Positions 4,557 to 31,953 of a stretch of DNA of 32,000 nt are shown here, one piece after another. This DNA is from Thermoproteus tenax Kra 1 (GTDB taxonomy: Archaea; Thermoproteota; Thermoprotei; Thermoproteales; Thermoproteaceae), in contig NC_016070.1 of assembly GCF_000253055.1 (NCBI RefSeq), positions 1,320,001 to 1,352,000 of the forward strand, read 5' to 3'. The translations under genes and the position numbers were made by a program. The notes below the pieces were generated by a model, which saw only the letters and a list, made by a program, of their open reading frames with translations, was not told where the DNA came from and searched no databases. Positions within the stretch are counted from its first letter, which is position 1. Each line of letters begins with the position of its first letter.

Positions 4557-4583
4557 GTCTGAGATAGGCTCTGCGGGTTTATC

Positions 4584-4639
4584 TTCCACGGCAGGGCGAC
4601 GAAGAGAGAGTCTAATAGCGCGCTCCATACGGCAGATGG
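4584..4639. repeat. 56-nt copy (55/56 identical) of the core of the 7171-7460 RNA-like locus
   Basis: ttccacggcagGgcgacgaagagagagtctaatagcgcgctccatacggcagatgg matches 7224-7279 with a single g/a difference (4595 vs 7235). Same orientation, 2.6 kb apart. Confidence 0.9.
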
Positions 4640-4662
4640 CTCTCGATGATGGACATAGGATG

Positions 4663-4681
4663 GCCACAATTTTATTGTGGC
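4663..4681. promoter_or_regulatory. Perfect 8-3-8 palindrome overlapping the TATA region of the HAD gene
   Basis: GCCACAAT-TTT-ATTGTGGC. The AT-rich centre lies about 25 nt upstream of the ATG at 4697. Candidate operator or bidirectional promoter. Confidence 0.5.
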
Positions 4682-4696
4682 TAACGTTGTCGTGAT

Positions 4697-5392
4697 ATGA
4701 CTATAGCCTTAGTCGACCTCGATGGAACATTGATACCTCTGGAGGCTTGGGATCCCGTCTTCTACGAGCTGTCGTCTATAATTGCGTCTAGGGCCGGCGT
4801 TGAGCCTCAGGATGTGTGGGGGCTTGTTAAGGCATTACATTATCAGCTCATGAGGAGGTTCGACCCTAAGGCGTTCGATTGGCAGTACTTGTTCGAGTCT
4901 GTGGGAAGTAGCCTGGGCATATTCGATATTCCCAACATCGAGGATATTCTTTTGAAATACGTGGACAACTTCCCCGTGAACGAGGGAGCCTTTGAGCTTC
5001 TTAGAGATCTCAGATCTCTGGGACTTTCACCTGTTATAGCCACCAACGGTCTGTATAGATATCAGCATATTGTAGTGGAGAGGTTGGGGTTCTCTAAATA
5101 TGTAGATGGCGTCCGCACGTCTGATGCCTACGGTTGTACGAAGAGCTGTAGTAGATTCTTCGAGGGGGCCTCGCTGGTTATTGGAGATAACCCCATCTTC
5201 GACGTATATTTCCCGAAGAAGTTCGGCGTGGCCACTATATTTATCGGCGAGTGGAACAGAGCTGTGAGAAAATACAGCGAACTACTGGGGATAGATGCGG
5301 GCATCGTTAGGCCCGACTACATCGCTGCAGACCTTATTGAGGCCCGCGCCGTCGTCGCGCGGTTCAAGGCCTGGGAGAGGTCGGCCCCATGA
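4697..5392 (+). CDS. HAD-superfamily hydrolase
   Basis: The N-terminal motif I is present (MTIALVDLDGTLIP, DxDGT), and a late GDN motif is present (VIGDNPIFDV). Confidence 0.75.
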   Translation: MTIALVDLDGTLIPLEAWDPVFYELSSIIASRAGVEPQDVWGLVKALHYQLMRRFDPKAFDWQYLFESVGSSLGIFDIPNIEDILLKYVDNFPVNEGAFELLRDLRSLGLSPVIATNGLYRYQHIVVERLGFSKYVDGVRTSDAYGCTKSCSRFFEGASLVIGDNPIFDVYFPKKFGVATIFIGEWNRAVRKYSELLGIDAGIVRPDYIAADLIEARAVVARFKAWERSAP

Positions 5393-6262: not shown

Positions 6263-6814
6263 TTGCCTAACATCCGCTATAGTCAGGTGACCTTCGCCAA
6301 ACCCTGCCTGATGCTCTTCTCGTGCCCAGGGGACGGGGGAGACACGCTGGTGCTCCACAGAGGCAGAGCGCTCCAGGCCTCCAAGGCGGACCCTCTGGTC
6401 AAGCTGTACGGGGCGTTGGACACGGCGGTCGCCTACGCCCACAAGGCCGCAGGCCTCCTCCCCCGCCCGCAGGCCAGAGTCATGAGGCTCCTCGCCTTCT
6501 CTATGACGGAGCTCGGCTTCTACGTGGCCACGGGCAGAGCGCTCCATCTGGACAACGCCGTGGAGCTCTACAGGAGGGCCCTCAAGCTCGCCTACTCGGC
6601 CAGCGGCGATCCCCCGCGCAGCTGGATAGCTTGCTCCTCGCCCGAGTGCTCGGCCGTGGACGAGGCGAGGGTGTGGGCGAGGTGGGCGGAGAGGAGGGCT
6701 GTGGCGCTCGGGGAGGCCGAGGCGGCGAGGCTTCTGAACCAGCTCTCCAACCTGATGTTCGAGGTCATGGCCACCCTCCCGCACATAGAGTACAGATCGA
6801 GGCCTCTGAGGTGA
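6263..6814 (+). CDS. ATP:cob(I)alamin adenosyltransferase, PduO type
   Basis: GDGGDTLVLHRGRALQASKADPLVKLYGALDTAVAYA matches the PduO/MMAB N-terminal pattern (GD.G.T.L..G....K.D.R..A.G..DE). The true start may be Met17 (6311). The gene is about two-thirds G+C, so all frames are open here. Confidence 0.75.
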   Translation: MPNIRYSQVTFAKPCLMLFSCPGDGGDTLVLHRGRALQASKADPLVKLYGALDTAVAYAHKAAGLLPRPQARVMRLLAFSMTELGFYVATGRALHLDNAVELYRRALKLAYSASGDPPRSWIACSSPECSAVDEARVWARWAERRAVALGEAEAARLLNQLSNLMFEVMATLPHIEYRSRPLR

Positions 6815-6927
6815 TCGATTTCGACGTTAAAGCGGTGTGATGCCGGGGTAACCCGCCACTCTCATCCGCCCCACACGGGGGTGTCGGTGTGGCGTCTCTA
6901 TCTACTTGCTTGTTTAAAAGCTTTTGT

Positions 6928-7170: not shown

Positions 7171-7460
7171 CGACTGAAGGTCCCGCCATTCAAGTCGGGG
7201 GTGGATTTAAGCTTGCCACATTTTTCCACGGCAGAGCGACGAAGAGAGAGTCTAATAGCGCGCTCCATACGGCAGATGGTCCCCGCCGCGATGCCCGCCC
7301 CAACCGCGGCCTCCCTCGTTAGGGCCGAGTGCCGCCCGGCCCCATGCCCGATAAGCCCGCGCCGGAGGTATCTTGGATGCCGATGAAGGCATGGGCGAGG
7401 AGAAACCCCGCCCTTTAGGGCGGGGAGGCGGAGCGCGGCCATGTGCATATAGGGCGGCAC
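7171..7460 (-). ncRNA. GC-rich structured RNA-like locus A (unknown family; paralog of 31491-31821)
   Basis: About 290 nt at roughly two-thirds G+C between two AT-rich promoters. It contains several perfect 8-9 bp helices (see findings). A TATA-like GATATAGG lies 25-32 nt upstream of 7460 on the minus strand. The only ORF is an implausible Arg/Gly/Pro-rich 111-aa frame. The strand is inferred from G-U pairs in the paralogous hairpin. Confidence 0.5.
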
Positions 7461-7497
7461 GCAAAATATTTTTAAATGGCCTATATCGCGTTGGGTC

Positions 7498-28424: not shown

Positions 28425-29015
28425 GTGTCCCACATGGCTGGATTCGAAAAATACAAGATGGCCTTATTAGAAGTAGCCAAAGCTTTGTCAGATAGCGGTA
28501 TTGACTTCGTCCTTGTGGGTTCCGCCGTCCTCCCCCTAGTTTACAATATCGACTATGAGCCCGGTGACCTAGATATTTTTATAGTTAACAAATCGACTAT
28601 ATTAGATTACGAGTTGTTTGAAGATATAGCGCGGAGACACGATTGGGATATAGGGTCGACGGATCATGGAACGATATACTACGAGATGTTGGTATCCGGG
28701 GAGATGTTGAAGGTAGACCTATTAGAGAACATATTAGATATATATATTCCTCCTGAGATACTCGAAAAAACTATTAGAGTAAAAATTGATGATTTTTATA
28801 TAAAGAGTATAAAATTAGAAGATTTATTAGTACTGAAGGCAAAGATAGCTACGAGGGACGCCGAAGAGTTTATAGCATATGTTGCGAGGCTCCTAGCAGA
28901 TCCTAAATATAATATTAATATTAATAAAAAATATATTAAAGATATAATAGATTTATTCCAAGAAAAAGAAAATATAATTGACAGATTAAATAAAAATGGT
29001 ATATATATCGATTAG
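28425..29015 (+). CDS. Minimal nucleotidyltransferase-fold protein (MNT-like)
   Basis: LVGSAVLPLVYNIDYEPGDLDIF fits the GS-Xn-DxD pol-beta NTase motif. The gene is strongly AT-rich compared with its neighbours. A leaderless GTG lies about 25 nt from a TATA. Confidence 0.55.
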   Translation: MSHMAGFEKYKMALLEVAKALSDSGIDFVLVGSAVLPLVYNIDYEPGDLDIFIVNKSTILDYELFEDIARRHDWDIGSTDHGTIYYEMLVSGEMLKVDLLENILDIYIPPEILEKTIRVKIDDFYIKSIKLEDLLVLKAKIATRDAEEFIAYVARLLADPKYNININKKYIKDIIDLFQEKENIIDRLNKNGIYID

Positions 29016-29206
29016 CCAAGCACTACTTGCTTTACTGCTTGGACAAGCTGATTGAGCATCGAGTCGGTTTGGTTTCTGAAGGACAATATGCTATCTAACG
29101 AACCCTTTATTATTCCGGTCACCGTTAAGGCGAAGGCGACAAATATCCCTATGGCTAAGAACAATAACAGCGTCTCTTCCACAAATATAGAGCCTCTTCT
29201 CTTCAT
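29012..29206 (-). CDS. Small protein with a class III (type IV pilin-like) signal peptide
   Basis: 64 aa. MKRRG/SIFVEETLLLFLAIGIFVAFAL has a basic N-terminus, Gly, then a hydrophobic helix, as in archaeal prepilin/archaellin-like precursors. Confidence 0.45.
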   Translation of the reverse strand: MKRRGSIFVEETLLLFLAIGIFVAFALTVTGIIKGSLDSILSFRNQTDSMLNQLVQAVKQVVLG

Positions 29207-29306
29207 GTCTAATTATTGAAAGATTAAATACACCTTATTAATGAGGGGTGCGCCGAGAGATCGATGAATCAATTGCTTAATTTATGCGGTTTCACTCGCG
29301 TGACCC

Positions 29307-29538
29307 GGGCACCTCCTCCATCTGCTCGCAGGCGGGGACTGGTGAGGGGCTTGCCCTTAAGTCGCTTCTCTGCCTCTACTGATACAGATGGAGGCGGGGG
29401 GGGGGGGGACATAGCCGCCGTGATAAACAACGAAAGGAGGGTGCCGGAGGTGCTCGCGGAGGGCCGCGCGCACTCCGGCCCCAGGGCCTCGCGCCCAAGG
29501 TATTGTGCCGATTAGGGCGCAAGCAAGGAGGAGGTCCC
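29307..29538 (+). ncRNA. GC-rich structured RNA-like locus D (unknown family)
   Basis: A 12-bp terminal helix (29307-29319 / 29527-29538, one bulged C) encloses four hairpins plus an inner 5-bp closing helix. One hairpin is a 15-bp stem (29443-29479). The TATA cttaatttatg (29276-29286) is centred about 26 nt upstream of 29307. A G-U pair in the AGGGG-CUUG-CCCUU hairpin favours the plus strand. Confidence 0.45.
29396..29408. repeat. G13 homopolymer tract
   Basis: Thirteen consecutive G residues were counted directly, inside locus D. Confidence 0.95.
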
Positions 29539-29589
29539 AGAGCGCGATGCCGGTAGTAATCGACTAGGGATAGATGTTTAATGTGGCCT

Positions 29590-31437
29590 CTATAGTTGTT
29601 TATACGTCGGTCTCTCCGATAATAATCTCGGCATATATAACGGCCTCTTGGGATAGCCTTTGATCTCGCTTTTAATAAGCGATATCAGCTCTTGATGCGT
29701 CATCTGACGCTGCGTGCCGCCTCTTATCCTCACCGTGAGAGTCTTAGATTCGACCTCCTTATGCCCTATGACGACAATATACGGTATCCATTCCCTTTCG
29801 GCGTCGCGTATCCTCCTTGAAAGCGTCTCGTTTCTATCGTCGATATCCGCTCTGATATCCGCCCCTTCGAGCTCGTCGGCAAGCTTAAGCGCCTCCTCCA
29901 GTTGCTCTCTATTGATCGGAATTATTCTTACTTGAACGGGCGAGATCCAAGTCGGAAGCCGCGGCACCTGTCCCCTTTTCTCCATGAGGGCTGCTGTATC
30001 AAACAACGCAAAGAGGTATCTCTCAACGCTGCCCAATATGGCCGTATGGATTATTACAGGATATCTTATCTTATTTTCATCGTCTATATATTTGATATTG
30101 AACCTCATCGCGTTGCCGACATCTATCTGGAAGGTCGCAATCTCCCTCGGCCGTCCCAACTCGTCTATTATGTGGAACTCCACGTTGAGAACCCAGTAGT
30201 ACTTCTGCTCTGGCAGTATCCTCAGCAATATTGGCTTGCCCTCGCGCTTGGCCAACTCAATTAGATAGTCCTTGTATCCCCTATAGAACTCGGCTGTTAC
30301 GTTATATAATGAGACGTAATCTCGTCCAATTTTTCTTATTTCTTCAAATATTTTATTATGTAACTTATAGGTTACCTCAATTGCTTGTTTTAAATCTTTT
30401 GTGAAAATATGAAGGTCTGGCATATAAAATCTCCTTAGTCTAAACAGGAGAACAGTTTCGCCGGGTTGTTCGTATCGGTACGAGTCCGCCACTTCCAACA
30501 TTCCGAAAGGCAGATTCCTGTAGCTCACGACCCAGTCTCTCACCATGGCAAACTGTTGGAAACATGCGGCATAGCGGAGTATCGATTCAGTGTCTGCTTC
30601 TACTATGTACAGACGTTCCCCGAATAGTTTAGCATGGGTCTCAATGGGTCTCTCGCTCAGCTTGAACATATTAGTGCCTCTTATCTTGAATATGGGTATT
30701 CCGAGAGACTTCGCGACTTGGTAGGCGTAGTCCTCCACCAGTTCCATCATTATTGTGGCATCAGGCCCATATCTCATGTGGCCCACATCGGACATAGGTT
30801 CCCACTCGAAGCCAAAACGTTTTACATACTCTATGTATTTTGGCTCGCCGCCTGGCAACTCCCTTTTGAATACCTCCTTATCTACCAGAGCTTTTAGATC
30901 GGGGTATTTATCCAACGGATAGTCGGCTGGATTGTACTCTTCACCCTCAGGCGACAGAATAAGATAGATATCAGGAGCTGCGCGCTCGGCTTGAGCTTGC
31001 GGCCTTCCGCTGAAAAGCTCCGGCTTGTACGAGTAAGATCTGCTGAGCTCAGAAAGAGGATGCCCTATACATTTTATTTCAAATGATTTATAATATCCAA
31101 ATGGAGCTTTTAACACTTTAAATTGATTAAATCCATTTAATATATCGAATAACTTATTCAATATTTCTCTTGAGGTATAGGGCTTTGCTAAATTGGGCGA
31201 TAGATGGGCGTATGGATATATTACTATTGTTTGAGCGTCCACCTTCTTAGCAACCTCAACAATATCTCTTGAGATAGCCGCAAGATACGCCTCGTCGGGC
31301 TTATCGCCCTCCTCAACAGTAATAAACGCAACGAGGGCATTATCGGCATTGCCTGAGACAGGGTCATCCCTGATATCTAACGCCGGCTCCTTTGGCTCCC
31401 ACCTAAAATATTGGGCATGTATCAGGAGCACGCGCAT
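29590..31437 (-). CDS. thrS: Threonyl-tRNA synthetase, full-length archaeal form with N-terminal editing domain
   Basis: Class II core motifs and a C-terminal anticodon-binding domain are present. The ORF-track start at 31566 runs through the GC-rich upstream block. Met44 (31437, MRVLLIHAQYFRWEPKEP) is the typical archaeal ThrRS start and lies about 28 nt from the TATA at 31460-31470. Confidence 0.9.
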   Translation of the reverse strand: MRVLLIHAQYFRWEPKEPALDIRDDPVSGNADNALVAFITVEEGDKPDEAYLAAISRDIVEVAKKVDAQTIVIYPYAHLSPNLAKPYTSREILNKLFDILNGFNQFKVLKAPFGYYKSFEIKCIGHPLSELSRSYSYKPELFSGRPQAQAERAAPDIYLILSPEGEEYNPADYPLDKYPDLKALVDKEVFKRELPGGEPKYIEYVKRFGFEWEPMSDVGHMRYGPDATIMMELVEDYAYQVAKSLGIPIFKIRGTNMFKLSERPIETHAKLFGERLYIVEADTESILRYAACFQQFAMVRDWVVSYRNLPFGMLEVADSYRYEQPGETVLLFRLRRFYMPDLHIFTKDLKQAIEVTYKLHNKIFEEIRKIGRDYVSLYNVTAEFYRGYKDYLIELAKREGKPILLRILPEQKYYWVLNVEFHIIDELGRPREIATFQIDVGNAMRFNIKYIDDENKIRYPVIIHTAILGSVERYLFALFDTAALMEKRGQVPRLPTWISPVQVRIIPINREQLEEALKLADELEGADIRADIDDRNETLSRRIRDAEREWIPYIVVIGHKEVESKTLTVRIRGGTQRQMTHQELISLIKSEIKGYPKRPLYMPRLLSERPTYKQL

Positions 31438-31490
31438 TAGGTGATTCCTCGCTCCCTCGTATATAATTTTGGCCCCTTGTGGCGCCCGGC

Positions 31491-31821
31491 CTCCGTGTGG
31501 GCGGCCCCAGGTGTACTCGGAGCGGGGCCCAAGCACGCCGAGGATGCCAAGAGAGGTGGTGAACATCCAGCCGCCGTAGATTTCGTATGAACCTCTATCC
31601 GCTCCACTGTGGGAGTCTCACCGGTTGCCCTCTCCGGGGCTGATGGGAGAGACCACGACTGGATGCCGCGGCGAAGCGGACATCGCGGCGGGGCACCCCA
31701 GCTGACCCCATCCCATTGTGTGAGAAATAAACTATCATCGACTCTTTCTTCATCGCTATGCCATAGAAGATGTGGCTTGCTTAAAATCCATCCCCGATTT
31801 GAAGGGCGAGGCTTTCGGTTG
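31491..31821 (+). ncRNA. GC-rich structured RNA-like locus B (paralog of locus A)
   Basis: The TATA tatataatttt (31460-31470) is centred about 26 nt upstream. 31740-31821 aligns with the reverse complement of 7171-7254 at about 78% identity. 31665-31697 aligns with the reverse complement of 7278-7310. The terminal hairpin 31795-31821 is maintained by G-U pairs only on this strand. Confidence 0.45.
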
Positions 31822-31953
31822 CAAGTTCACATCCAACGATCACTCGCCTAATGATAATATGGGCTGATGCCCTAATTCTCCTCAATACGACAAGTATACA
31901 ATCCTATCTTAAGTAGAAAGCTTTTATACTGGAGCGATTTGCCCTCTCAGCAA

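What the first reader, a model, noticed from the sequence alone, without database searches (positions are those of the whole stretch)
29307..29538. Third GC-rich structured locus closed by a 12-bp terminal helix, with its own TATA box
Between the pilin-like gene and the thrS stop lies a 232-nt block. Its ends pair (GGG-C-ACCUCCUCC with GGAGGAGGUCCC, 12 bp plus one bulge). An inner 5-bp helix stacks on that (29320-29324/29385-29389). The block encloses four hairpins: 29337-29363 (CUUG tetraloop with a G-U pair that favours the plus strand), GGCGG/CCGCC around the G13 tract, a 15-bp stem at 29443-29479, and GCGCCC/GGGCGC at 29491-29520. A TATA-like cttaatttatg is centred about 26 nt upstream of the first paired base. 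Short motifs recur in loci A and B (CAUC..GCGGGGAC, GUCGCU..CUGCC), but I cannot exclude chance in such GC-rich sequence. The 83-aa ORF here (Gly/Arg/Pro-rich, containing GGGGG from the G13 run) is implausible. No SRP or RNase P core motifs were found.
Basis: partly seen in the sequence, partly recalled or inferred. Interest (0 to 1): 0.7.

Follow-up and report, generated by a model that had tools for sequence, protein, structure and literature searches.

The report
Orphan GC-rich structured insert beside thrS
A 232-base, very stably folding GC-rich block sits inside a ~340-base insertion found in only one Thermoproteus lineage; it looks like a recently acquired small-RNA gene or the relic of a small mobile element, it matches no known RNA family, and nothing yet shows that it is used.

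Summary
The sequence features are real. The block 29307-29538 is 67% GC against 43% in its flanks. It has the lowest folding energy of any 232-nt tile in the window (-128 kcal/mol, z about -4.7). Its ends form a 12-bp helix with one bulged C, with pair probability 0.97-1.0 at 37 C and 0.65-0.96 at 85 C. An A/T-only octamer, TTAATTTA, lies 21-28 nt upstream.

The motifs said to be shared with the other GC-rich loci are at chance level.

The window comes from a Thermoproteus-like archaeon. Eight other Thermoproteus lineages keep the gene order thrS-pilin-like gene-DUF2204-pgk-gapdh, but with a 36-40 nt spacer instead of 383 nt. The block is therefore part of a lineage-specific insertion of about 331-340 nt, flanked by an imperfect 9-nt direct repeat.

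I found no homologue in Rfam, in a model built from the element itself, in viral, plasmid or metagenome collections, or among 5.8 billion proteins searched in six frames. SRP RNA (including the permuted Thermoproteus form), type T RNase P RNA, tRNA and guide sRNAs were tested and rejected.

Best reading, at about 0.4: an acquired orphan cassette that encodes a stable structured RNA on the plus strand. The main rival, at about 0.3, is a hairpin-rich mobile-element relic with no RNA function. Interest is moderate to low.

The parts
29247..29577 (.). Lineage-specific inserted unit of about 331 nt between the thrS stop codon and the promoter of the pilin-like gene
   Evidence: The spacer is 383 nt here and 36-40 nt in eight other Thermoproteus lineages that keep the same gene order. 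It is present in three assemblies of this species.
29238..29246 (.). Left copy of an imperfect 9-nt direct repeat (TTAATGAGG); possible target-site duplication or recombination core
   Evidence: (D8): the two copies are 340 nt apart, which equals the size of the insertion. About 10% of shuffles give such a repeat. It lines up with the CATTA[A/C] motif upstream of the pilin-like gene's TATA box in relatives.
29578..29586 (.). Right copy of the 9-nt direct repeat (TTAATGTGG)
29279..29286 (+). TATA-like box TTAATTTA, the only A/T-only octamer in the 60 nt to the left of the block; its centre is about 24 nt upstream of G29307
   Evidence: Read from the sequence. The distance fits the archaeal TATA-to-start spacing of about 26 nt, as reported for the T. 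tenax SRP RNA gene (PMC4731332). Its orientation is not established.
29307..29538 (+). GC-rich structured block, the candidate RNA body
   Evidence: MFE -128 kcal/mol with z -4.69 on the plus strand; -104.7 with z -3.29 on the minus strand. Lowest MFE in the window. The plus-strand fold has 11 G-U pairs and the minus-strand fold has 2.
29307..29319 (+). 5' arm of the terminal helix (GGGCACCUCCUCC, with C29310 bulged)
   Evidence: (I6).
29527..29538 (+). 3' arm of the terminal helix (GGAGGAGGUCCC)
   Evidence: (I6).
29337..29363 (+). Hairpin with a G-U pair and a GCUUG/CUUG loop
   Evidence: Helices 29337-40/29360-63 and 29343-48/29354-59 in the MFE.
29365..29402 (+). Long hairpin in which the CU-rich strand pairs with GGAGGC plus the G tract. 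It holds two of the three strain substitutions (29367 and 29405), and both keep pairing on the plus strand
29396..29408 (+). G13 homopolymer tract; it reads GGGGGAGGG (4 nt shorter) in L081 and L082
29420..29438 (+). Largely unpaired A-rich linker GUGAUAAACAACGAAAGGA between the 5' and 3' hairpin domains. On the minus strand it reads as a U-rich tract that follows the strong hairpin
29439..29482 (+). 18-bp interrupted hairpin (3+7+3+5 bp) with an AGGG loop
   Evidence: It persists in the 85 C fold.
29575..29603 (+). Only T-rich stretches downstream on the plus strand (GTTTAAT, GTTGTTTAT). These are weak candidate stop sites, convergent with the 3' end of thrS
   Evidence: Read from the sequence. 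No terminator-like site was found by the scan.

Best explanation
The block is the core of a ~331-340-nt piece of DNA that entered the thrS/pilin-gene spacer in one Thermoproteus lineage. The inserted piece carries its own TATA-like box.

Most likely (inferred, not shown), transcription starts at about G29307 on the plus strand. It would produce a ~230-290-nt RNA that folds into a closed bundle of hairpins. Both ends would be locked in a 12-bp G/C-rich helix that is predicted to survive at 85 C, which would make the RNA resistant to exonucleases and heat. The transcript would then either stop at the weak T-rich stretches at 29575-29603 or run antisense into the last codons of thrS.

On this reading it is an orphan, recently acquired small-RNA gene cassette. 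What the RNA does is unknown. The only leads are six GGAGG motifs, which could bind a CCUCC-containing partner or switch partners with the RNA's own CCUCCUCC 5' arm, and its convergent arrangement with thrS.
For: Shown:
- The insertion is derived. It is absent from eight Thermoproteus lineages with conserved gene order, including the sister clade and outgroups in a thrS tree.
- It is real, being present in three independent assemblies.
- It is non-coding. A 4-nt indel between strains breaks the frame, and no frame has a homologue among 5.8e9 proteins or in Pfam.
- GC is 67% against 43% in the flanks. Its per-nucleotide folding energy (-0.55 kcal/mol) is close to that of a bona fide SRP RNA from this family of archaea, which gives -0.66 and z -7.2.
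- It has the lowest MFE and a top ~1.5% z-score among all tiles of the window.
- The terminal helix is robust at 85 C and beats 997 of 1000 shuffles.
- The plus strand folds 23 kcal/mol better than the minus strand and has 11 G-U pairs against 2.
- The two strain substitutions that fall in helices (U-A to U-G, and C-G to U-G) keep pairing only on the plus strand.
- GGAGG occurs 6 times where 1.2 are expected (2 of 2000 shuffles).

Inferred:
- The single A/T-only octamer in the left flank sits at the canonical ~26-nt promoter distance from the first paired G, which follows a pyrimidine. The spacing is as reported for a Thermoproteus RNA gene in PMC4731332.
Against: - There is no evidence of transcription.
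- No homologue was found anywhere, so covariation cannot be tested.
- Within the species the element changes at about the neutral rate: 1.3%, against 0.91% at third codon positions.
- The z-scores of the two strands are not very different (-4.7 and -3.3). Part of the G-U asymmetry simply follows from the excess of G on the plus strand, so much of the signal could be DNA-level inverted repeats.
- There is no clear oligo-T terminator on the plus strand.
- The TATA-like box is nearly symmetrical and could serve the minus strand.
- Relatives do without the element, so it is not essential.
Confidence: 0.4

Rival explanations
1. A relic of a small non-autonomous mobile or integrated element (MITE-like or palindromic). 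On this reading the hairpins and the terminal inverted repeat are DNA-level features and the RNA has no function. The element landed next to a TATA box and duplicated 9 bp.
For: - It is a lineage-specific insertion into conserved gene order.
- It has 12/13-nt terminal inverted repeats (I6).
- It is flanked by a 9-nt direct repeat whose spacing equals the insertion size.
- It is under 400 nt with no ORF.
- It evolves at a neutral-like rate.
- Both strands have significant z-scores.
- The same genome carries a second lineage-specific ~400-nt GC-rich insertion on the other side of thrS, and a repeated promoter-bearing module at three sites.
- MITE-like elements that resemble sRNA genes are described in Pyrobaculum calidifontis (PMC6009581).
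Against: - The direct repeat does not abut the inverted repeats. About 60 nt on the left and 39 nt on the right lie between them, and these outer ends show no inverted repeat.
- No second copy was found in 41 kb of the same genome, in the 83 fetched loci, in the one JGI metagenome scan (exact terminal repeats, gap 192-222 nt), in viral or plasmid collections, or as spurious ORFs among 5.8e9 proteins.
- GC is 24 points above the flanks, and the stability persists at 85 C. That is what selection on an RNA fold in a hyperthermophile would produce, and it is not required of selfish DNA.
Confidence: 0.3
2. A cis-acting element on the minus strand. It would be a structured 3' end or terminator for thrS (a strong hairpin at 29482-29439 followed by CCUCCUUUCGUUGUUUAU), an insulator, or a 5' leader for the pilin-like gene.
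For: - It lies 51 nt after the thrS stop codon, on the path to the next gene on the same strand.
- The minus strand is also significantly structured (z -3.3).
- A U-rich tract follows the strongest hairpin on that strand.
Against: - Eight relatives have a 36-40-nt spacer and need no such element.
- The minus strand folds 23 kcal/mol worse, with almost no G-U pairs.
- The terminator scan found nothing.
- The pilin-like gene keeps its own TATA box at the same distance from its ATG as in relatives.
Confidence: 0.12
3. A divergent or rearranged copy of a known universal RNA: SRP RNA (including the permuted, circularised Thermoproteus form), type T RNase P RNA, or a multi-intron tRNA.
For: - Thermoproteus SRP RNA genes are permuted and were long missed (PMC4731332).
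- Short look-alikes exist: CCCUUAAGUCGC here against CCCUUAAGCCGC in T. tenax, and similar 3' ends.
- In one Caldivirga genome the SRP RNA gene sits next to thrS.
Against: - Alignment to the published T. tenax SRP pieces is at chance level: 101 of 500 and 210 of 500 shuffles score as well.
- It has no GNAR helix-6 loop, no AGCA helix-8 motif and no bulge-helix-bulge motif at the termini (read from the sequence).
- Archaea_SRP and RNaseP-T give no hit at E<=10. By contrast the SRP model scores 95 bits on the Caldivirga control, and the type T model is reported to score 117-169 bits across Thermoproteaceae (PMC3579882).
- There is no tRNA hit from ARAGORN or Rfam.
- At 232 nt it is too short for an SRP RNA (~309 nt).
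Confidence: 0.03

Closest known systems
GC-rich stable small RNA genes of hyperthermophilic archaea (candidates found by composition and structure, such as the Hgc RNAs of Rfam; the class itself is cited from general knowledge)
   Same: A GC-rich island set in an AT-richer intergenic spacer, with a strong predicted fold, a TATA box about 25 nt upstream and no ORF.
   Different: Those families are conserved across species. This one is confined to a single species-level lineage and has no detectable relative.
MITE-like elements resembling C/D box sRNAs in Pyrobaculum calidifontis (Lui et al. 2018, PMC6009581)
   Same: They occur in Thermoproteaceae. They are short non-coding insertions bounded by inverted repeats, lie in regions that do not align with related genomes, and are transcribed as small RNAs.
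   Different: Those have at least 15 copies, C and D boxes, and are about sRNA-sized. Here there is a single known copy, no boxes, a 232-nt multi-hairpin body, and a direct repeat that is not adjacent to the inverted repeats.
Permuted, circularised SRP RNA gene of Thermoproteus tenax and T. uzoniensis (Plagens et al. 2015, PMC4731332)
   Same: It is from the same genus. It is a GC-rich RNA gene missed by standard models, with a TATA box 26 nt upstream, and the ends of the primary transcript pair with each other.
   Different: The element has no SRP motifs, no BHB processing site, only chance-level sequence similarity, and is 232 nt rather than 309 nt.
Bacterial palindromic intergenic elements such as Correia/NEMIS or ERIC (cited from general knowledge)
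   Same: Small, hairpin-forming, promoter-proximal intergenic insertions that can be transcribed and can alter the expression of neighbouring genes.
   Different: Those are bacterial and highly repeated, with defined inverted repeats directly abutting the target duplication. None of that is shown here.

Membership tests
Archaeal SRP RNA (Rfam RF01857), canonical | Covariance-model match (Alu domain, helix 5, helix 6, helix 8) | tested here: not met
   No Archaea_SRP match at E<=10 on 29150-29650. As a positive control, the same model scores 95.2 bits (E 2e-22) on the Caldivirga SRP RNA at L024:4637-4959.
Permuted circular SRP RNA of Thermoproteus (PMC4731332) | Helix 6 GNAR tetraloop, and a helix 8 SRP54 site (AGCA with a GNRA tip) restored by joining the ends | tested here: not met
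   None of the predicted hairpin loops is GNAR; the loops are GCUUG, AUA and AGGG. The terminal helix is fully Watson-Crick apart from one bulged C, with no AGCA loop.
Permuted circular SRP RNA of Thermoproteus (PMC4731332) | Bulge-helix-bulge motif formed by the leader and trailer at the termini | tested here: not met
   Read by hand from 29290-29555. The leader UGACCC and the trailer AGAG form a 6x4 internal loop between the terminal helix and a 5-bp outer helix. There is no 3-nt bulge/4-bp/3-nt bulge arrangement.
Permuted circular SRP RNA of Thermoproteus (PMC4731332) | Sequence similarity to the T. tenax SRP RNA | tested here: not met
   Local alignment against the published S-domain, probe and BHB sequences is at chance level.
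Type T RNase P RNA (Rfam RNaseP-T) | Covariance-model match; CR-I/CR-V forming the P4 pseudoknot; P1-P2-P3 order | tested here: not met
   No hit at E<=10. The model is reported to score 117-169 bits on all Thermoproteaceae (PMC3579882). The GAAAG and ACAGA look-alikes are both G-rich, cannot pair with each other, and are in the wrong order.
tRNA, including multi-intron Thermoproteales tRNA | Cloverleaf with T loop and D loop, and a 7-bp acceptor stem | tested here: not met
   ARAGORN finds none in the window. There is no Rfam tRNA match at E<=10. No UUCRANY T loop is present, and the closing helix is 12 bp with a bulge.
C/D box or H/ACA guide sRNA | C/D boxes (RUGAUGA and CUGA), or a pseudouridylation pocket with a K-turn and ACA | tested here: not met
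   No Rfam guide-RNA match in the block. The same scan does find the H/ACA sRNA PyrR205 at 6838-6896. No box pair was seen by eye.
MITE (miniature inverted-repeat transposable element) | Terminal inverted repeats | tested here: met
   12 of 13 nt at 29307-19 and 29527-38 (I6); only 3 of 1000 shuffles do as well.
MITE (miniature inverted-repeat transposable element) | Target-site duplication directly flanking the inverted repeats | tested here: not met
   The only flanking direct repeat (9 nt, 8 of 9 identical) lies 60 nt and 39 nt outside the inverted repeats. The true insertion ends have no inverted repeat.
MITE (miniature inverted-repeat transposable element) | Multiple dispersed copies in the genome | tested here: inconclusive
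   No second copy in 41 kb of the same genome, in 83 loci, in one JGI metagenome scan, or in the viral, plasmid or protein collections. The rest of the genome could not be searched.
Functional structured ncRNA gene (generic) | Fold more stable than composition explains, and strand-specific | tested here: met
   z -4.69 on the plus strand and -3.29 on the minus strand; lowest MFE in the window; 11 G-U pairs against 2. The strand difference is modest.
Functional structured ncRNA gene (generic) | Helices maintained by compensatory changes in homologues | not testable with these tools
   Only two distinct sequences exist, 98% identical. Two helix substitutions keep pairing, but about 25% of such cases would do so by chance.
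Functional structured ncRNA gene (generic) | A discrete transcript | not testable with these tools
   No expression data are available. There is only a consensus-type TATA box at the right distance.

The most novel reading that the evidence does not exclude
A new, lineage-restricted structured small RNA of about 230-290 nt, carried on a self-contained promoter-plus-gene cassette that moved into the thrS/pilin-gene spacer. That would be an example of an archaeal RNA gene spreading as a mobile unit. Its ends would be sealed by a heat-stable 12-bp helix, and it would display six GGAGG motifs, perhaps as a decoy for a CCUCC-bearing partner such as the 3' end of 16S rRNA.
Probability: 0.3. Interest if true: 0.55.

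Novelty: new member of a known kind. Interest (0 to 1): 0.35.

Why it matters
If the element is transcribed, it would be a young orphan structured RNA in a hyperthermophilic crenarchaeon, and one whose time of arrival can be dated by comparison with eight relatives. That would be a rare chance to see how a new RNA gene, or a mobile RNA cassette, appears and whether it acquires a function.

Together with the second insertion on the other side of thrS and the repeated promoter-bearing module elsewhere in the window, it suggests that this lineage is gaining GC-rich intergenic DNA. That bears on how RNA genes in Thermoproteus get rearranged, as with the permuted SRP RNA and the fragmented tRNAs.

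If it is only a dead insertion, it is a cautionary case. GC richness, a good z-score and a nearby TATA box are not enough to call an RNA gene.

Tried and rejected
1. Known RNA families. Rfam at gathering thresholds and at E<=10 gave only chance-level hits in the block.
2. SRP RNA. I followed the permuted-SRP lead through Plagens 2015 and its supplementary sequences. The similarity is at chance level and the defining motifs are absent. The Caldivirga SRP RNA next to thrS is a coincidence of one genome.
3. Type T RNase P RNA: rejected.
4. tRNA: rejected.
5. Kinship with the other GC-rich loci at 4560-4700, 7190-7470 and 31440-31830: local alignments are not better than shuffles once six tests are allowed for.
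6. Origin as an inverted or direct duplication of thrS coding sequence: chance level.
7. Coding remnant: no frame matches Pfam or any of 5.8e9 proteins.
8. Homologues by DNA. None turned up in blastn or nhmmer against 80 thrS loci, in phage and plasmid collections, or in five viral contigs patterns.
   - The single metagenome scan used the two terminal repeats and returned one unrelated chance match, L083. In hindsight an internal loop sequence might have been a better pattern.
9. A covariance model of the element found only the three same-species copies in 328 kb.
10. An apparent z -7 at 233-464 was noise from using only 12 shuffles; it is -3.0 with 100 shuffles.

Full report
**What is in the sequence**

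Window 29307-29538 is a 232-nt block of 66.8% GC. It lies in a 383-nt spacer whose remaining 151 nt are 43% GC. The spacer runs from the stop codon of a threonyl-tRNA synthetase gene (minus strand, 29590-31437/31566) to the start of a 64-aa pilin-like gene (minus strand, 29012-29206). That small protein has a class III signal-peptide-like N terminus and no Pfam family.

On the plus strand the block folds to -128 kcal/mol, with z -4.69 against 200 dinucleotide shuffles. On the minus strand it folds to -104.7 kcal/mol, with z -3.29.

I tiled the whole 32-kb window in 232-nt pieces on both strands. The block has the lowest MFE of all tiles and ranks third or fourth of 276 by z-score. Equally GC-rich coding DNA at 6265-6730 has z near 0. 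For scale, a bona fide SRP RNA from a related genus gives z -7.2 and -0.66 kcal/mol per nt, against -0.55 here.

- The terminal helix is solid. GGG-C-ACCUCCUCC pairs with GGAGGAGGUCCC as 12 bp with one bulged C. Its base-pair probabilities are 0.97-1.0 at 37 C and 0.65-0.96 at 85 C. Only 3 of 1000 shuffles give as good a long-range inverted repeat.
- The hairpin 29337-29363 and the 15-bp stem 29443-29479 are both in the MFE.
- The proposed inner 5-bp helix (29320-24/29385-89) is complementary, but its ensemble probability is about zero and forcing it costs 11 kcal/mol.
- The GGCGG/CCGCC and GCGCCC/GGGCGC hairpins are outcompeted. The first loses to a long hairpin at 29365-29402, in which a CU-rich strand pairs with GGAGGC and the G tract.
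- The 5' arm CCUCCUCC has four alternative GGAGG-containing partners (I2, I6, I8, I9). GGAGG occurs six times where 1.2 are expected (2 of 2000 shuffles).

The TATA-like TTAATTTA at 29279-29286 is the only A/T-only octamer in the 60 nt to the left of the block. It lies 21-28 nt upstream of G29307. This matches the ~26-nt spacing reported for a Thermoproteus RNA gene (PMC4731332).

**It is non-coding**

Two Logan assemblies of the same species (L081 and L082, 99.2-99.5% identical to the window over 3.6-12.4 kb) carry the element. In both, the G13 tract reads GGGGGAGGG, which is 4 nt shorter and destroys the 83-aa frame. The ORF, and a concatenated six-frame translation of the block, have no match among 5.8 billion proteins or in Pfam.

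**The key result: it is a lineage-specific insertion**

ThrRS is 76-80% identical to that of Thermoproteus uzoniensis and several Thermoproteus MAGs, so the window comes from a Thermoproteus-like archaeon.

- Six species-level relatives (L001-L006), plus T. uzoniensis (L085) and a more distant Logan lineage (L084), keep the order AdoMet_dc - thrS - pilin-like gene - DUF2204 - pgk - gapdh.
- In all of them the thrS-to-pilin-gene spacer is 36-40 nt, against 383 nt here.
- In a ThrRS neighbour-joining tree the window branches between L006 and the L001-L005 clade. Absence on both sides therefore points to a gain.
- An imperfect 9-nt direct repeat brackets a 331-nt unit: TTAATGAGG at 29238 and TTAATGTGG at 29578, 340 nt apart. 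It aligns with the CATTA[A/C] motif that precedes the pilin-gene TATA box in relatives.
- By shuffling, such a repeat arises about 10% of the time, so this is suggestive only.
- The outer ends of the unit show no inverted repeat.
- The TATA-like box lies inside the inserted unit. The pilin gene keeps a TATA box at the same distance from its ATG as in relatives.

**No relatives anywhere I could look**

| Search | Result |
|---|---|
| Rfam, gathering and E<=10 | only chance-level hits |
| blastn and nhmmer against 80 thrS loci | nothing |
| Rest of the window and 41 kb of the same genome | nothing |
| Phage and plasmid collections | nothing |
| Five patterns against viral contigs | nothing |
| Covariance model of the element (232 positions, 79 pairs) over 328 kb of Thermoproteaceae loci | only the three same-species copies |
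| Metagenome scan with both terminal repeats | one contig, unrelated between the repeats |

**Known families tested**

The most attractive lead was the permuted, circularised SRP RNA of Thermoproteus. It is also GC-rich, was missed by standard models, has a TATA box 26 nt upstream, and has ends that pair (PMC4731332). I took the T. tenax S-domain, probe and BHB sequences from that paper's supplement.

- The block shows only chance-level similarity: 101 of 500 and 210 of 500 shuffles score as well.
- It lacks the GNAR helix-6 loop, the AGCA/GNRA helix-8 tip and a bulge-helix-bulge motif at its ends.
- It is 77 nt too short.
- Rfam's Archaea_SRP model is sensitive in this family of archaea. It scores 95.2 bits on a Caldivirga SRP RNA that happens to lie next to thrS in L024. 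It gives nothing on the block at E<=10.

The type T RNase P model, reported to score 117-169 bits throughout Thermoproteaceae (PMC3579882), also gives nothing. No tRNA, C/D or H/ACA signal is present.

Other origins were tested and rejected. Similarity to the other GC-rich loci of the window is at chance level. Similarity to thrS itself, on either strand, is at chance level too.

**Selection**

Between the window and L081, divergence is 0.22%, 0.08% and 0.91% at codon positions 1, 2 and 3. The block has three substitutions (1.3%) and one 4-nt indel, which is about neutral. Two substitutions fall in the long hairpin and convert U-A to U-G and C-G to U-G. Both keep pairing on the plus strand only, and the third is in a loop. 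With two events this is not significant.

**Interpretation**

What is shown is a real, non-coding, exceptionally stable, hairpin-rich block. It is closed by a heat-stable helix and was delivered as part of a ~331-340-nt insertion that includes a TATA-like box at promoter distance.

What is inferred is that it is transcribed on the plus strand into a stable small RNA. Several features favour an RNA-level reading:
- a GC content 24 points above the flanks;
- the plus-strand advantage of 23 kcal/mol and 11 G-U pairs against 2;
- the promoter geometry;
- the ends being sealed in a helix.

Against this:
- both strands have significant z-scores, so much of the signal is ordinary inverted repeats;
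- the excess of G on the plus strand explains part of the G-U asymmetry;
- there is no clear terminator;
- no conservation can be shown.

I put an acquired orphan sRNA cassette at about 0.4. A mobile or integrated-element relic without RNA function is at about 0.3. A minus-strand cis element for thrS or the pilin gene is at about 0.12, and a disguised known RNA is at about 0.03. The rest is unassigned.

The first two readings are not exclusive. MITE-like elements that look like sRNA genes are known in Pyrobaculum calidifontis (PMC6009581).

**Context seen along the way**

The spacer on the other side of thrS is also inflated: 515 nt against about 100 nt in relatives, through a ~400-nt GC-rich insertion. 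That insertion is not significantly structured (z +0.5). It begins with a TATA-bearing module that recurs at 7190-7290 and 4575-4640. This lineage therefore seems to be accumulating GC-rich intergenic DNA, which fits a mobile origin for the block.

**Verdict**

The interpretation as a functional RNA is possible but unproven. Interest is moderate to low (0.35) unless expression or further copies are demonstrated.

Noticed in passing
window 31470-31880 (minus strand, upstream of thrS): A second lineage-specific GC-rich insertion of about 400 nt. The AdoMet_dc-thrS spacer is 515 nt here and about 100 nt in L002-L005, L084 and L085. It is not significantly structured (z +0.5). It differs from L081 at about 10 sites in 300 nt, which is faster than third codon positions. 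Gene callers fuse part of it to thrS as a 43-aa N-terminal extension (658 aa against 615 aa).
   Followed up: partly
window 4584-4639, 7224-7279 and 31690-31810 (minus strand): A repeated module with a TATA-like box followed by GGCAGRGCGAYGAAGARAGAGUC. The first two copies are 98% identical over 56 nt, and the third is a diverged copy that opens the insertion upstream of thrS. It may be a mobile promoter or sRNA cassette. No Rfam family matches it.
   Followed up: partly
window 7232-7452: A GC-rich (~65%) non-coding stretch next to the ribosomal protein P1 gene; the 111-aa ORF across it has no Pfam hit. Its only Rfam signal is a weak HgcC-like match (24 bits, gathering score 50) at 7365-7446. 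Fold z-scores are -1.4 and -1.95.
   Followed up: partly
window 6838-6896 (minus strand): The only Rfam gathering-level hit in the window is the H/ACA-like sRNA PyrR205 (42.8 bits), just downstream of a cobalamin adenosyltransferase gene (6263-6814). The three overlapping ORFs at 68% GC in that gene could be mistaken for an RNA locus.
   Followed up: yes
L024 4637-4959 (Caldivirga sp. MU80): A canonical SRP RNA gene lies directly upstream of thrS. It scores 95.2 bits against Archaea_SRP, just under the gathering score of 96.5, so a default Rfam annotation misses it. Blastn with it found no match in the other fetched loci, including the other Caldivirga locus (L017).
   Followed up: yes
window 29396-29408: The G13 homopolymer is polymorphic between assemblies of the same species (13 G against GGGGGAGGG). 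This could be real tract instability or an assembly effect.
   Followed up: partly
window 29390-29534: There are six GGAGG motifs on the plus strand where 1.2 are expected (2 of 2000 shuffles). The 5' arm CACCUCCUCC resembles an anti-Shine-Dalgarno sequence, so the terminal helix looks like an SD/anti-SD duplex.
   Followed up: partly
window 29423-29436 and 29590-29603: The unpaired linker AUAAACAAC of the block repeats, in inverted orientation, the last codons and stop codon of thrS (14 nt, 86% complementary at the DNA level). A read-through plus-strand transcript could fold back on it. This may be chance.
   Followed up: no
window 29012-29206 (minus strand): The 64-aa pilin-like protein (MKRRG/SIFVEE..., followed by a hydrophobic helix) is conserved at 64-75% identity and at the same position in six other Thermoproteus lineages (L001-L006), with a similar-sized gene at that position in L084 and L085, but it has no Pfam family.
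   Followed up: partly
L083 1189-1409 (JGI contig Ga0068714_10010076): Both 12-13-nt terminal-repeat sequences occur with exact matches, 196 nt apart, in an unrelated GC-rich contig. This shows that a 25-base split pattern can match by chance in the metagenome collection.
   Followed up: yes
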